In this document: in pieces, positions 32,018 to 45,439 of the stretch
Numbering within the stretch: position 1 is the first letter of the stretch
Layout: each line of letters starts with the position of its first letter
Virus record (IMG/VR): IMGVR_UViG_3300028832_000007
Coordinates: 6,459 to 70,458 of that record
DNA from: a virus
Taxonomy: Duplodnaviria > Caudoviricetes
Reading direction: 5' to 3' (one strand)
Length of the DNA stretch: 64,000 bases
Position numbers and translations under genes: made by a program
The notes under the pieces: model-generated
Told to the model about the DNA's origin: nothing
What the model saw: only the letters and a program-made list of their open reading frames with translations
The model's database searches: none

Positions 32018-32116
32018 GGTTCACTCCATTTTTACCACCGCCCCACCCGTTTACGGGCAGGGCACGCACCGAGCCTGAGGTCTGTTTATACTCGCTCGGT
32101 CGAGTGCTGGCTGGGC

Positions 32117-38184: not shown

Positions 38185-38496
38185 ATGAACGATTTTACGC
38201 TAAAATTCCATTCTGGGGACCATGTGTTCCTTTTTAACAGTATTTCTCTCTCTATCGAGGAGGATGACGTGTACGGAGCCCTGTTCTTGCCTGTACCTGT
38301 GCCGGGTGTGCTTCAGGAGAGCGGGAAGAGCATCAAGGAGAAGATCGAAGCCGGTCAGTTGGCGGTAAAGCAGCAGTATCAGCTGTGCCAGCACCAGGGC
38401 GTGGTGGATGCAGACATCCTTTTCGGTACCCGCGAGGAGTGTATCGCGTTTTACGCGGAGTTCTTCAACCGTGGCGGCGCGATCGTCTCAGAATAG
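38185..38496 (+). CDS. Hypothetical protein
   Basis: 103-aa ORF. Confidence 0.7.
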   Translation: MNDFTLKFHSGDHVFLFNSISLSIEEDDVYGALFLPVPVPGVLQESGKSIKEKIEAGQLAVKQQYQLCQHQGVVDADILFGTREECIAFYAEFFNRGGAIVSE

Positions 38497-38503
38497 GCGT
38501 TTT

Positions 38504-38590
38504 TCCCGGGTAGCCCAACCGGTGAGGCCCTGGCGAGCCCCGTTTATGGGGCGGACCGGTAAGATGCGGGTTCGAGTCCCGCCCCGGGAG
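38504..38590 (+). ncRNA. tRNA-like RNA 1 (no canonical anticodon loop)
   Basis: 7-bp acceptor TCCCGGG/CCCGGGA, TAGCC D arm with GG, T arm GCGGG-TTCGAGT-CCCGC; anticodon arm extended. Confidence 0.8.
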
Positions 38591-38643
38591 CTCTGAGTGA
38601 AAGATTTTTCATAAGCAGTGGTTGTTATACATGTGTTAAGTTG

Positions 38644-38673
38644 AAGCGGGTCGCTGCGAAGTGCCCCGCTTTG
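38644..38673 (+). terminator. GCGA-capped terminator
   Basis: AAGCGGG-T-CGCT-GCGA-AGTG-C-CCCGCTT-T. Confidence 0.75.
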
Positions 38674-38728
38674 TTCTTATGGCACGGAATTTGAAGGATT
38701 TGTTGTTAGTTTATAAATATTTTCGTTT

Positions 38729-40187: not shown

Positions 40188-42337
40188 AGGGCAATGCCCT
40201 GTATGACGACAAGGGCCTGTTGCTGGCCAGGATTGTCGTCAGGGATGGCGAGATGCATGTAGTGCGGGAGCCACGGTGTTCGATAGGGGATTATTTCGCG
40301 ATATTGACCATGTTACACGAAAAAGGATACAGAATATCATGAGCACGATAGTTTTGACGAAGACCATCGCCAAGCAGATACTTCGGCTGTTCGATCATTG
40401 TTTCAAGCAGGGCGTCATGGATGCTGCGGACAGCTCGGATGACCTGATGGCGAGGGAGTGGCTTGAAGCCCGGTTGAATGACGGGAAGTTCGGGCGTGTC
40501 ATCGAGCCTGATGCGGAGTATAACTGGAAGAGATGGCGCTTTACCCTGTATTGGTGGAGCAGGGAGTCTAAAATTGGGACTCTCGGGGAGAATTATATAG
40601 ACTATATCCGGGATATGAATTCATTCCATTATGCTCTTCTCCCTGTCTGTATGCGTTTTTACCTGATGGGGGTGCAGGAGTGGCTGGATTATCCAAACCC
40701 GTCAAAGATGGTCTTTTTCACCGGGGAGAATAATGTTCATTGGGCTCCCGTTGGCTCCAATATCCGAAAGATTTCTGTTACGGATTTCATTTCTTACGTC
40801 CAGATGTTCATATTCGAGCGGGTTGAGAAGCAGTACGAGGGAGATATGCCTTCTTCCCGATATGACAGCTTTGCCCAGGCGCTCTGGACCTTAACAAAAC
40901 GTTTTCCTGATTTTTATGGCAAATTTAGAGAAGATATCGAGGGTTCCTAAGGTGTTCCGGACAAACCATGCCCAGGTCGGAGGGTTTTCCATGGATTATA
41001 TGCTCCTTCCAATAGGATTCAGGTACAATGACGAATGGCTCAAGGCGAAGGCTGGGGATAAGCTGTATCTGACTACGGGTGGGGAGCATATCATCAGGTA
41101 TGTGAGAAAGCTTCCCATGAAAAGTACCTTCACTGACATATTATGTCGGGTCCGTTATGGGATGACTCTGGCCGGAGTTCTCCAGAGATGGCAACTGAAT
41201 GCGTCTCTGGAGGGACATGGCAAGCAGTGTATCAGTACGGATGAGTGTCTTTGGGTCGTATATGAAAAGGACGAAGAAGAATAGCGGATATGTCCCGACT
41301 GAAAAGTATGGGAAATTATCGTGCAGGTTTGCGCCGGAGGTTCTTGTTCCCTCAAACGCGATTGATGGGTCTTTTTTCCTGGGTGCTCCCGCCGACAGGT
41401 ATATTTTCACGACAATGGACGGACATAAGTGTCTTGGCACGTTTCTTGCATCATGGAAAAACAGTGAGGACGGACATAATGATGAGCTGCAGGACTTTTG
41501 TATGGAACGCTTTAAGTGCGGTTTTGGTACGATCCGGGCTATCATGGCGTCCAGATTGGGGAAGGTTGAGGATTATTGGCATCTGATAAAATTAGAGGAG
41601 ATATGTGCTTAGAAGAAATGTTTGAGAAAGGAATCACCCCCCTGACGGGGCCGAATAAGGGGGAGCGCATGTGTGTCGTGGAGATGGATCGGCTCGCTGT
41701 TCGTGTCCGTGGATGGAATTCAATGAAGGAATATCCTCCAATCCGTCATGGGGACTATAAAATATGGGATGAGGTATGACAGGCGAGGAGATGTTAGGAC
41801 TTTTTGAGCAGGGAAAGGCTGCTGGAGTAGAGACGACGGTCCTGATTATCCGTGTCCAAGGAACGGTCTTTGTCAGCTTCGACGGAGAAGAGTGGGTTGA
41901 GTCAAAGAGTGAATTTATCAACAAACAATTAGATTGATATGGATTATAGAGTTTCTGAACTTTTCAAGTGTGGTGTGACCCCGAAAAAGGGGAAGGGCGC
42001 CGGTGTCAGGTATCGCGTGCAAAGCGTGTGGCCTGGCGGTGTTGTAGTCAAGCCATGGGAGGGCGACGGCGATGCTGTCGAGCTGAAGGAAGGTGAGTAT
42101 GTGCTGTGGACTCCTCCCAAGACGTTGTTCAAGGATCCGACCATCCCTGCCACATGGGGGAACCTCAAGCGTGCTGTGGAACAGGCGGGACTTGGAGACG
42201 ATACCAGGATTCTTTTGTGTGATGGTTTTTTCTGGCCTGTGGAGACTTTCTGCGGTTTAAGCGGCGCCAGTTTTTCCCTTATCGAGGCGAAAGCTCTTGA
42301 CGGTAGTGGCAAGGAGAGGGTTATCGTAGTGAAATAG
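40169..42337 (+). CDS. Run of hypothetical genes (40169-40342, 40339-40950, 40916-41284, 41262-41612, 41605-41779, 41776-41937, 41939-42337)
   Basis: Coupled + strand ORFs; no motifs recognised; some starts approximate. Confidence 0.6.
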
Positions 42338-42345
42338 AGACGGAT

Positions 42346-42442
42346 ACCGGGGTACCTCAGAGGTTAGAGGAAGGTAAGCGTGGGCAGGTAAGAAGGGCTA
42401 CGCGCTTAGCCAAAGACGCGGGTTCGAACCCCGCTCCCGGTG
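42346..42442 (+). ncRNA. tRNA-like RNA 2 (long anticodon-position stem, purine-rich loop)
   Basis: Acceptor ACCGGGG/TCCCGGT, D stem CCTC/GAGG, T arm GCGGG-TTCGAAC-CCCGC. Confidence 0.8.
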
Positions 42443-42513
42443 CTATGGTGTGGGTGAGGGACAAGACCAGCCGCTACTGGCGGAGGAGGCATGAGAAATC
42501 CGCACCGACTTTT

Positions 42514-42631
42514 GGATGGATGCCAGAATTGGGATTGGGAATCCCCCGATAGGGTAGCCCGGCGCATCAGCCCTTTGTAGTATCGGCTGGTTGGTGTGGA
42601 GGGCATGCAGGTTCGAGTCCTGTTCCATCCA
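42514..42631 (+). ncRNA. tRNA-like RNA 3 (class II-like, ~48-nt extra arm, aberrant anticodon loop)
   Basis: Acceptor GGATGGA/TCCATCC, D stem CCAG/TTGG, T arm GCAGG-TTCGAGT-CCTGT. Confidence 0.78.
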
Positions 42632-42647
42632 CAAAAACTGATGTGAT

Positions 42648-43208
42648 ATGGCAGTAATAGTACCAAATGTAGAGAAAATGACTTTGGCGGAAGCGAAGAA
42701 TTTTTGCCGCCCAGGACAAGCTATTTTTATAGATAGCGATAAGATTCTTGTCCTTGAAAAATCGGATGTGAAAAATTTCGATGACTACAAGCAGCGCTTA
42801 AAAGACCACATCCTTGGTATCATGTCGTCCGCTGAAGACGACAAGCCTAGTATGTTCAGTCTGGCTGCTTATATTCGCAACGAGGTATTGCGGGATTTAT
42901 ACAACGATATTAACAAGGATAGAATATAAGCCACCATCCACAATATGGCAAAAGGAAAATGGTTTAAGGAAGGTGCAGAGTGCTGGGTGTACTCGACCTT
43001 GGAGATAGATACGAACCCTATTACTCATCTTCATTGGGTGTCGAAGGGGTACATAAAGAAGATAGGAAGGAAGTGGACGGAGGTTGTCTTAAATTATTAC
43101 AATGAGTCCACTCCGTTCCTTACCGATTCAGAGGTATTCTATTCTTTGGGACAAGTCCGACGCAGGTACGGGAATGACTTTGAAATAAGGGACGAGAAAT
43201 GGAGTTAA
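42648..43208 (+). CDS. Two hypothetical proteins (42648-42929, 42945-43208)
   Basis: Coupled ORFs ahead of the helicase. Confidence 0.65.
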
Positions 43209-44710: not shown

Positions 44711-44818
44711 TATCTTTGCATAAACATTGTGTCGCAGACAATGAGTAGAAATATATCACCCCGAATGAGTAGTGCGGAGCTGCGACCTCCGCGTGAAAGT
44801 CCGGGGTTAGTTTTTAAG
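44711..44818 (+). promoter_or_regulatory. Promoter (-7 TATCTTTG) and structured leader of HNH gene
   Basis: GTCGCAG (44731-37) is complementary to the CTGCGAC loop of the GCGGAG/CTCCGC hairpin, nested in ACCCCG/CGGGGT. Confidence 0.6.
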
Positions 44819-45439
44819 ATGGAAGAAATTTGGAAAGACATCCCTGGATATGAAGGGTTATACAAAGTTAGCAGCCTTGGGAGGGTGTTATCTTTGAATT
44901 ATAACAGCGCTGGGATATCAAAGATAATGAAGGGTTCTATCAAACGAGGGTATTTAATTGTAGAACTTTATAAAGATAGGATTAGTAAGAGATTTTCAGT
45001 GCATAGGCTCGTTACCATGACTTTTCTCCCGATCCCGGAAAACCTAAAGCGATATATCGGCACAAGGATTTTGCAAGTTAATCATATAGACGAAAACAAG
45101 ACAAATAATTCCGTTGATAATCTTGAATGGTGTACCGCTTCTTATAATCTGTCTTATGGAACAAGACCTCGCCGAGTGTTGGATTCGCATAAGGCTTCTG
45201 GTTCGTCTCGTGCAGAGAAGCAGGTGTGCCAATATGACCCAACTGGGAATTTTATCAGAAAGTATATATCTGCTCACGCTGCGGCGAGAGATACGAAACT
45301 TGATTTTAGTAAAATAGCGATGTGTGCAAGGAAGGAAAGAAATATGCACGGAGGTTTCCTCTGGTGCTACGCCTCCGATACAGAACGCATAAAAGAAATC
45401 GAATCATTACGGACCGATTCTTCGCCGAAGCTGTTTTAG
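44819..45439 (+). CDS. NUMOD4-HNH-NUMOD1 homing endonuclease
   Basis: EIWKDIPGYEGLYKVSSLGRV, VHRLV, VNHIDENKTNNSVDNLEWCT. Confidence 0.92.
   Translation: MEEIWKDIPGYEGLYKVSSLGRVLSLNYNSAGISKIMKGSIKRGYLIVELYKDRISKRFSVHRLVTMTFLPIPENLKRYIGTRILQVNHIDENKTNNSVDNLEWCTASYNLSYGTRPRRVLDSHKASGSSRAEKQVCQYDPTGNFIRKYISAHAAARDTKLDFSKIAMCARKERNMHGGFLWCYASDTERIKEIESLRTDSSPKLF

What the first reader, a model, noticed from the sequence alone, without database searches (positions are those of the whole stretch)
38504..38590. tRNA-shaped RNA 1: perfect elbow and acceptor, anticodon loop replaced by an extra hairpin
Seen: 7/7-bp acceptor stem, U8-A9, GCC/GGC D stem with D-loop GG, and canonical T arm (GCGGG-TTCGAGT-CCCGC). 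The anticodon position holds a 4-bp stem, a 3x3 CGA/GGA internal loop and a second hairpin GCCCC-GTTTAT-GGGGC with a 6-nt loop, so there is no 7-nt U33 loop and no encoded CCA. Established: acceptor plus D/T elbow is what RNase P, RNase Z, the CCA enzyme and EF-Tu recognise. Inference: a non-decoding tRNA mimic, either a decoy for tRNA-targeting or tRNA-sensing defences or a processing handle that releases the downstream RNA at 38591-38673.
Basis: partly seen in the sequence, partly recalled or inferred. Interest (0 to 1): 0.85.

Follow-up and report, generated by a model that had tools for sequence, protein, structure and literature searches.

The report
Non-decoding tRNA-shaped phage RNA
This 87-base stretch of a rumen phage is a real tRNA-derived gene that can no longer read codons, one of a family of phage "tRNA frames" whose decoding arm has been replaced by other folded pieces; what it does is not yet known.

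Summary
Observation confirmed. It is not a decoding tRNA. Rfam's tRNA model does not hit it, and no single deletion rebuilds an anticodon arm.

The frame is of the tRNA-Asn/Gln type. It fills a conserved slot right after a 103-aa ORF in a clade of ~70-kb rumen phages. In that clade nearly all tRNA-shaped genes carry lineage-specific inserts in place of the anticodon loop. Frame helices covary. The acceptor/T-arm half stays 88-100% identical where the neighbouring gene's DNA is 60-75% identical. One orthologue's insert is a two-hairpin kissing-loop module with five compensatory pairs.

For RNA1 itself, six samples keep the stems unchanged and the loop has three alleles. Two samples have lost 37 nt, the 3' D strand and the whole arm, leaving an acceptor/T minihelix.

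Best reading: a non-decoding tRNA scaffold recognised by tRNA end-processing enzymes, with an extra hairpin that is dispensable in one lineage. Function is unproven and no expression data could be obtained. This scan has reported similar phage families on other DNA.

The parts
38504..38590 (+). tRNA-shaped RNA 1, whole element (87 nt including discriminator G)
38504..38510 (+). acceptor 5' strand; pairs 7/7 with 38583-38589
   Evidence: identical in all close relatives
38513..38528 (+). D arm: 3-bp stem and 10-nt loop with GG; Gln-like
   Evidence: its 3' strand is lost in L028/L106
38530..38559 (+). extended anticodon arm: 4-bp basal helix, 3x3 internal loop, 5-bp stem, 6-nt loop (38542-38547)
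   Evidence: stems invariant in six samples, loop in three alleles
38518..38523 (+). first ACCGGT copy; with the copy at 38555-38560 it bounds the natural 37-nt deletion
38555..38560 (+). second ACCGGT copy (palindromic; can also pair with the first copy)
38566..38582 (+). T arm, 5-bp stem and TTCGAGT loop
38583..38590 (+). acceptor 3' strand and discriminator G; no encoded CCA
   Evidence: the same 3' half occurs in real tRNA-Asn/Gln genes
38185..38496 (+). ORF103, the conserved anchor gene that ends 7 nt before the element
   Evidence: no Pfam family; confident model with weak Tudor/chromo-barrel-like matches
38484..38503 (+). small hairpin spanning the stop codon, then a T5 leader just before the tRNA-like 5' end
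   Evidence: kept in relatives with U:G changed to U:A
38591..38641 (+). trailer, the most diverged stretch of the locus
38642..38680 (+). terminator-like hairpin with GNRA loop, then a T-rich run
   Evidence: fold; conserved in relatives
42346..42443 (+). sister element RNA2, with the same kind of frame and a 13-bp arm
42514..42632 (+). sister element RNA3, with orthologues of 66-118 nt in four related phages

Best explanation
RNA1 is a gene derived from a tRNA of the Asn/Gln type (U1:A72, G73). It has lost the ability to decode: its anticodon loop is replaced by a short pedestal (4 bp and a 3x3 loop) carrying a U-rich hairpin. It is one allele of a conserved slot just after ORF103 in a clade of ~70-kb rumen phages. 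In that clade tRNA frames are kept while the anticodon arm is swapped for lineage-specific folded inserts. Shown: selection keeps the acceptor/T-arm half and usually the four-way junction, while RNA1's own arm can be lost. Inferred: the RNA is transcribed with ORF103 and cut out by host RNase P at 38503/38504 and by RNase Z after G38590. It then receives CCA and persists as a stable tRNA-shaped small RNA. It acts through the features those enzymes and other acceptor/elbow-binding factors recognise. This cutting also sets the 3' end of the ORF103 message at the small hairpin before it. The extra hairpin is a tolerated or accessory module, not the core of the function.
For: - Not decoding.
- Frame type: the 22-nt T-loop/acceptor 3' half occurs exactly in 36 bacterial genomes; 32 of those sites are called as tRNA-Asn(GUU) or tRNA-Gln(UUG) genes. 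Relatives L012 and L044 hold a true tRNA-Gln(UUG) in the same slot.
- Slot conserved: a tRNA, a tRNA-like gene or a structured RNA follows the ORF103 homologue in every relative whose downstream sequence could be read.
- Frame under selection: the top half is 88-91% identical to L032/L035/L036/L045, whose ORF103 DNA is 60-75% identical, and two of the 3-4 changes form one compensatory pair. Across 12 clade members, 97% of cells pair and 13 of 16 pairs change on both sides. Six orthologues keep a Watson-Crick basal anticodon helix of six different sequences.
- Arm dispensable: L028 and L106, from independent samples, lack exactly 37 nt between the ACCGGT repeats yet keep the other 50 nt identical. 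A second lineage (G003) has only a 43-nt acceptor/T minihelix.
- Clade-wide pattern: about 16 tRNA-shaped genes in five complete genomes, only 2 of them canonical.
Against:
- Within RNA1's own lineage the constraint is only weakly shown: 0 changes in 50-70 frame positions at 3-6% divergence, roughly p = 0.03.
- The acceptor and T pairs were partly selected for by my own scan.
- The deletion alleles could simply be dead genes.
- A processing or stability role does not explain why most lineages keep elaborate inserts that covary in some lineages.
- The cloverleaf is not the computed MFE.
Confidence: 0.5

Rival explanations
1. Natural tRNA scaffold with a working cargo. The inserted arm is the functional part: a protein- or RNA-binding module, or a sacrificial or decoy stem-loop. 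The tRNA frame only supplies processing and stability.
For: An orthologue in the same slot (L045, L115) carries a two-hairpin insert with a 6-bp loop-loop pairing. Of 16 differing columns, 10 form 5 compensatory pairs, all inside the insert. The L008 and L029 inserts also covary in a hairpin. RNA1's arm is more stable than 98% of its shuffles, and its stems are unchanged in six samples. In L110 and L111 the loop has 7 nt with U33, UUU and A37, the shape of a tRNA-Lys anticodon loop.
Against: RNA1's arm is deleted in two samples. Its loop has three alleles of 6-7 nt among near-identical phages. The inserts have no repeats and no antisense targets of 13 nt or more in five phage genomes. Only 11 of 26 arms fold clearly better than their shuffles. 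The six samples differ too little to test RNA1's stems.
Confidence: 0.17
2. Decaying tRNA pseudogene with no present function. An old tRNA-Asn/Gln gene was hit by an insertion in its anticodon loop and is now drifting.
For: The 37-nt loss in L028 and L106, the variable loop, the absence of an Rfam tRNA hit and a weak whole-molecule fold z-score. Phage tRNA genes are often gained and lost (established knowledge).
Against: Decay should strike the acceptor, D and T helices as often as the anticodon loop. Instead the frames stay paired and nearly identical across lineages whose neighbouring gene has diverged to 60-75% DNA identity. The basal anticodon helix is rebuilt with six different sequences. 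Inserts covary in sister lineages. All changes among close relatives fall in loops.
Confidence: 0.18
3. A processing handle whose purpose is to release the downstream trailer (38591-38673) as a small regulatory RNA.
For: The trailer starts right after the discriminator and ends in a terminator. RNase Z cleavage would define its 5' end (established knowledge). A TTTCAT motif is kept in all relatives.
Against: The trailer is the most diverged part of the locus between close relatives. The window's version differs from all seven others, and its predicted hairpin is not maintained. Other lineages have different sequence, or further tRNA-like genes, after the frame.
Confidence: 0.1
4. An intron-bearing tRNA that is spliced into a decoding tRNA.
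For: Rfam's tRNA model scores several insert-bearing relatives above threshold, treating the insert as a local insertion. Lak megaphages of Prevotella are reported to have tRNA genes with 'enigmatic introns' (PMC6784885).
Against: No single contiguous deletion gives a 5-bp stem with a 7-nt loop, U33 and purine 37 in RNA1. This also fails in 24 of 26 non-canonical clade members. There is no bulge-helix-bulge motif; the internal loop is a symmetric 3x3. The insert is far too short for a group I intron. The phage encodes no RtcB, RNA ligase or splicing endonuclease.
Confidence: 0.03

Closest known systems
Bacterial tRNA-Asn(GUU) / tRNA-Gln(UUG) (Rfam RF00005)
   Same: Acceptor stem with U1:A72 and G73, canonical T arm and Gln-like D arm. 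The 22-nt 3' half is letter-identical to real Asn and Gln tRNA genes. True tRNA-Gln genes occupy the same slot in two related phages.
   Different: No 7-nt anticodon loop, U33 or anticodon; the arm is about 7 layers too long; no hit to the tRNA model.
tRNA genes with 'enigmatic introns' in Lak megaphages of Prevotella (Devoto et al. 2019, PMC6784885)
   Same: Phages of gut or rumen Bacteroidales-type hosts with oversized tRNA genes interrupted in the anticodon region, of unknown meaning.
   Different: There an anticodon and an intron could be assigned, and the inserts are nearly identical across cohorts. Here no anticodon can be rebuilt, and the inserts differ between lineages.
Viral tRNA-like processing handles: MHV68 TMER vtRNAs, and MALAT1-mascRNA in cells (my own knowledge, not checked here)
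   Same: A tRNA-shaped unit that is not aminoacylated is cut by RNase P/Z, which sets the ends of the neighbouring RNA.
   Different: Those are eukaryotic, their released partners are conserved, and they keep near-normal anticodon arms. Here the flanking trailer is poorly conserved.
Engineered 'tRNA scaffold' for recombinant RNA (Ponchon and Dardel; used in PMC3753655)
   Same: The same architecture: an intact acceptor, D and T frame with a foreign folded RNA in place of the anticodon loop, which gives processing and stability.
   Different: That scaffold is man-made; a natural counterpart in phages is not described in the papers I could search.
YrlA / bacterial Y RNA with Ro60 (Rsr) (Rfam RF02553)
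   Same: A tRNA-like domain joined to a second module.
   Different: Opposite topology, with the ends at the module rather than the acceptor. Only the T arm matches (14.3 bits against a threshold of 69), and the phage has no TROVE protein.
Phage T4 stable RNAs species 1 and 2 in the tRNA cluster (my own knowledge, not checked here)
   Same: Small, stable phage RNAs of unknown function, co-transcribed and processed with tRNAs.
   Different: No sequence relation was tested, and they differ in size and fold.

Membership tests
tRNA (RF00005) | Score at or above Rfam's gathering threshold (29 bits) | tested here: not met
   No tRNA hit; the clan's best is tRNA-Sec at 18.7 bits, E = 0.45. Relatives with inserts do pass, at 31.9-47.4 bits.
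tRNA (RF00005) | 7-bp acceptor, D arm with G18 G19, and a 5-bp T stem with a TTCRA loop | tested here: met
   the D stem has only 3 bp.
tRNA (RF00005) | 5-bp anticodon stem closing a 7-nt loop with U33 and purine 37 | tested here: not met
   Instead a 4-bp helix, a 3x3 loop, a 5-bp stem and a 6-nt loop. ARAGORN's 'Ala(ggc)' fold has a mismatched stem.
Intron-containing tRNA (archaeal/eukaryal type or group I) | Removing one contiguous insert restores a canonical anticodon arm | tested here: not met
   0 solutions for RNA1; 0 for 24 of 26 non-canonical relatives.
Intron-containing tRNA (archaeal/eukaryal type or group I) | Splicing machinery or ribozyme: bulge-helix-bulge with endonuclease and ligase, or a group I core | tested here: not met
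   The loop is a symmetric 3x3, not offset bulges. The phage has no tRNA_int_endo, RtcB or RNA_ligase. No Rfam intron hit. Host enzymes could not be tested.
tRNA-Sec (RF01852) | 8/5 or 9/4 acceptor/T geometry, 6-bp D stem, long variable arm, UCA anticodon, 47 bits or more | tested here: not met
   18.7 bits; 7/5 geometry and no UCA loop.
tmRNA | tRNA-like domain together with a tag reading frame | tested here: not met
   ARAGORN's tmRNA mode finds none.
YrlA / Y RNA | Rfam score of 69 bits or more, and a Ro60 (TROVE) partner | tested here: not met
   14.3 bits over the T arm only; no TROVE in the phage. A host Rsr was not testable.
Phage attP fragment of a tRNA gene | Only the 3' part of a tRNA is present, next to an integrase | tested here: not met
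   The 5' strand is complete and pairs 7/7. There is no Phage_integrase, and the genome has direct terminal repeats.
Substrate of RNase P / RNase Z / CCA-adding enzyme (works-like claim) | Cleavage at 38503/38504 and after 38590, followed by non-templated CCA | not testable with these tools
   The 12-bp acceptor/T stack, the U at -1 and the lack of an encoded CCA are compatible.

The most novel reading that the evidence does not exclude
This rumen phage clade, and by this scan's earlier notes other phage groups too, uses tRNA frames as natural expression scaffolds. The host's tRNA-processing enzymes cut out and stabilise the frame. The arm that replaces the anticodon loop is an exchangeable, lineage-specific functional RNA module. 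Examples are the covarying kissing-loop module in the orthologues L045 and L115, and in RNA1 a U-rich anticodon-like hairpin on a pedestal. These modules would act on host or phage factors, possibly in defence and counter-defence. That would be an undescribed class of phage small RNAs.
Probability: 0.22. Interest if true: 0.8.

Novelty: new variant of a known kind. Interest (0 to 1): 0.55.

Why it matters
Phage genome annotation labels such genes as odd tRNAs or pseudo-tRNAs, or misses them. ARAGORN names this one tRNA-Ala and Rfam gives it no tRNA hit. In this clade about 14 of 16 tRNA-shaped genes cannot decode, yet their frames are conserved. This has two consequences.

- Counts of "phage tRNAs" overstate decoding capacity.
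- A recurrent, selected RNA architecture has no assigned function: a tRNA frame carrying an exchangeable arm.

If the frames are natural scaffolds for small functional RNAs, that opens a new class of phage non-coding RNAs and a natural parallel to the engineered tRNA scaffold. The paired long and 37-nt-deleted alleles found in nature offer a ready comparison for testing what the arm does.

Tried and rejected
- **blastn of the locus against cultured phages:** no match. The most similar cultured phages by primase are Parabacteroides, Bacteroides and Phocaeicola phages at 22-28% identity. The two regions I fetched, from Parabacteroides phage PF672P2 and the uncultured Dulem virus 40, hold no tRNA-like frame.
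- **Scan of viral contigs for the hairpin sequence:** only unrelated coding regions and terminators.
- **Scans for the 3' half in viral contigs:** one other element, L013.
- **Insert as a repeated mobile element or antisense guide:** no copy or complement of 13 nt or more in five phage genomes.
- **Shared GTTTAT between RNA1 and the L032 insert:** expected by chance (my estimate, about 0.2).
- **Ro/Y RNA, RtcB repair, splicing, CCA-enzyme and integrase links:** none of these families is in the phage.
- **ORF103 as a clue:** the model is confident, but only weak Tudor/chromo-barrel-like matches at E about 0.1 and no Pfam family.
- **Fetching the rest of the L106 contig to check RNA2 and RNA3 in the deletion lineage:** the record is not held.
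- **My first, loose frame scanner:** it has about 1.2 false hits per shuffled window. I replaced it with a strict one that gives 0 in 40 shuffles.
- **Literature searches for a described natural phage tRNA scaffold or decoy:** nothing closer than the Lak 'introns'.

Full report
**Where it lies.** The window is part of a complete 70,458-bp IMG/VR phage genome with direct terminal repeats. No cultured phage matches at the DNA level. Its D5/P4-type primase-helicase is most similar, at 22-28% identity, to those of Parabacteroides, Bacteroides (LoVEphage) and Phocaeicola phages of 60-73 kb. Relatives come from rumen-type metagenomes. The element sits in the replication module, in this order:
- primase-helicase, a DnaA-like HTH protein, dUTPase
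- ORF103 (38185-38496)
- the element, 7 nt after the stop codon
- a 50-nt trailer, then a GNRA-capped terminator-like hairpin (38642-38680)
- the next genes, including a YqaJ-type exonuclease.

- ARAGORN reports a gene at 38504-38591, but only by forcing a 'tRNA-Ala(ggc)' fold with a mismatched anticodon stem.
- Rfam's tRNA model does not hit. The best clan member is tRNA-Sec at 18.7 bits against a threshold of 47.
- A strict definition of a tRNA frame finds three sites in the window (this one, 42346-42443 and 42514-42632) and none in 40 block-shuffled windows. ARAGORN finds 2 against 0.
- One caveat concerns the fold. The two ACCGGT copies (38518-23 and 38555-60) are palindromic and can pair with each other. 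That gives an MFE of -42.6 kcal/mol against -40.8 for the cloverleaf, about an even split of the ensemble before any tertiary contacts.

**It cannot decode and is not a simple intron.**
- I enumerated every single contiguous deletion between position 27 and the T stem. None yields a stem of 4 bp or more with a 7-nt loop, U33, a purine at 37 and a 4-6-nt variable loop.
- A stricter version of the test (5-bp stem, pyrimidine 32, 4-5-nt variable loop) fails for 24 of 26 non-canonical tRNA-shaped genes of the clade.
- The internal loop is a symmetric 3x3, not the offset bulges of a bulge-helix-bulge motif.
- The phage encodes no RtcB, RNA ligase, tRNA splicing endonuclease, TROVE protein, CCA enzyme or integrase.

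**What it derives from.** The 22-nt T-loop plus 3' acceptor half, allowing the two variants seen in the family, occurs exactly in 36 bacterial genomes. ARAGORN of those sites as tRNA-Asn(GUU) or tRNA-Gln(UUG); none is from Bacteroidota. U1:A72 with G73 and the D arm are Gln-like. In two related phages (L012, L044) the same slot holds a normal tRNA-Gln(UUG).

**The slot and the family.** I used ORF103 as an anchor to collect relatives from viral contigs, metagenomes and assemblies. In every relative whose downstream sequence could be read, the ORF is followed within about 30 nt by a tRNA, a tRNA-shaped gene or a structured RNA leading into one.
- Orthologues with the same acceptor and discriminator (L013, L032, L035, L036/L118, L045, L115, L116) keep the D arm, the T arm and a Watson-Crick basal anticodon helix. 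That helix has a different sequence in each.
- What lies inside that helix ranges from a 4-nt loop to about 90 nt.
- In five complete genomes of the clade I count about 16 tRNA-shaped genes, of which only two are canonical.

**Selection on the frame.**
- Compared with L032, L035, L036 and L045, the 32 positions of acceptor plus T arm are 88-91% identical, while ORF103 DNA is 60-75% identical. Two of the 3-4 changes form one compensatory pair.
- Over 12 clade members, 97.4% of the cells in the acceptor, D and T helices pair, and 13 of 16 pairs change on both sides. No shuffle of 500 and no slid register comes close. The acceptor and T pairs were partly selected for by my scan; the D stem was not.

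**Inserts can be real modules.** L045 and L115 align without gaps over 105 columns and differ at 16 of them. Ten of those columns form five compensatory pairs, all inside the insert: one in the basal helix, one in hairpin 1, two in hairpin 2 and one in a 6-bp pairing between the two hairpin loops. All 36 pairs are standard in both sequences, and slid registers give none. The L008 and L029 inserts also differ by compensatory changes in a hairpin. At least some arms are therefore folded units under selection, not filler.

**RNA1's own lineage.** Seven further sequences from other samples are 94-97% identical around the locus.
- Five keep the full element with every stem unchanged.
- Their differences fall in loops. 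The hairpin loop has three alleles: the window's 6-nt form, a second 6-nt form, and a 7-nt form in L110 and L111. The 7-nt form has the formal shape of a tRNA-Lys(UUU) anticodon loop. The variable loop has one T/C change.
- Two sequences, L028 and L106, from independent data sets, lack exactly 37 nt between the ACCGGT copies. This removes the 3' D strand and the whole arm and leaves a 50-nt acceptor/T minihelix whose remaining bases are identical to the window's.
- All other orthologues have a four-way junction, and an insertion would have had to recreate two helices by chance. The short form is therefore a derived deletion.
- Another lineage (G003) has only a 43-nt acceptor/T minihelix in this region.
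- The trailer 38591-38641 is the most diverged part of the locus, and the window's version differs from all the others.

**Reading.**
- Shown: the element is tRNA-derived, cannot decode, and belongs to a conserved family of frames with exchangeable arms. Its acceptor/T half is the best-kept part. Its own arm is dispensable in at least one natural lineage.
- Inferred: it is co-transcribed with ORF103, excised by RNase P and RNase Z, CCA-tailed and stable. It works through the features those enzymes and other acceptor/elbow binders read. RNase P cleavage would also leave the ORF103 message ending in the small hairpin plus U run at 38484-38503.

I put this at about 0.5. The rivals are listed below.

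| Rival reading | Odds | Main point |
|---|---|---|
| The arm is the working cargo | 0.17 | Strengthened, weakened for RNA1 |
| Plain pseudogene | 0.18 | Hard to square |
| Handle for a trailer small RNA | 0.10 | The trailer is poorly conserved |
| Spliced tRNA | 0.03 | No deletion rebuilds an anticodon arm |

**Comparison and novelty.** The closest published case is the 'enigmatic introns' of Lak megaphage tRNAs (PMC6784885). The architecture equals the engineered tRNA scaffold. Viral tRNA-like processing handles (TMERs, mascRNA) are functional analogies that I recall from memory. This scan's earlier notes describe comparable tRNA frames with replaced anticodon arms in phages of Weissella, in soil and rumen jumbo phages and in others. 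The kind has therefore been seen before on other DNA, and this is a further variant with an Asn/Gln-type frame in a new phage clade. I found no paper describing such a family as natural scaffolds.

Noticed in passing
window 32033-32105 (-): A Pistol self-cleaving ribozyme (RF02679), 59.3 bits against a threshold of 34.5, near the divergent early/middle promoter region.
   Followed up: no
window 42346-42443 and 42514-42632 (+): Two more tRNA-shaped genes with non-canonical arms. They lie inside an operon, between ORF 41939-42337 and ORF 42648-42929. Orthologues of RNA3 in four related phages range from 66 to 118 nt.
   Followed up: partly
L045:1968-2072 and L115:375-479: Orthologous tRNA frames whose insert is a two-hairpin module with a 6-bp loop-loop (kissing) pairing. 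Five compensatory pairs separate the two sequences.
   Followed up: yes
L011:3280-3460, L034:1615-1750, L037:1795-2050, L045:1775-1965: A conserved structured stretch of about 200 nt lies between the ORF103 homologue and the tRNA-like gene in several relatives. It has no Rfam hit and is absent from the window.
   Followed up: no
L007, L008, L032, L035, L041, downstream of the tRNA-like genes: A conserved GC-rich hairpin with a GGAGGGATC core recurs in relatives and is absent from the window.
   Followed up: no
L110:1020-1107 and L111:1020-1107: An allele of RNA1 whose distal hairpin has a 7-nt loop with U33, UUU and A37, formally a tRNA-Lys-type anticodon stem-loop on a pedestal. Other samples have 6-nt loops.
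   Followed up: partly
window 38591-38641: The trailer after RNA1 is far more diverged between near-identical phages than its surroundings. The window's version differs from seven relatives that agree with each other, which may reflect a recombination patch.
   Followed up: partly
window 38185-38496: ORF103 is always next to the tRNA(-like) slot. It has no Pfam family. It folds confidently (pLDDT 89.8) into a small beta-barrel with a helix, with only weak Tudor/chromo-barrel-like matches.
   Followed up: partly
window 44741-45439 (+): An HNH/NUMOD homing endonuclease follows the SNF2-type helicase gene, about 2 kb from RNA2 and RNA3.
   Followed up: no
G005 (91-kb viral contig), L013:440-506 and array L069: An unrelated larger phage has an array giving about 30 T-loop motif matches. 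Outside that array it has a 67-nt element with the same acceptor and T arm as RNA1 but only a 3-bp/4-nt anticodon arm.
   Followed up: partly
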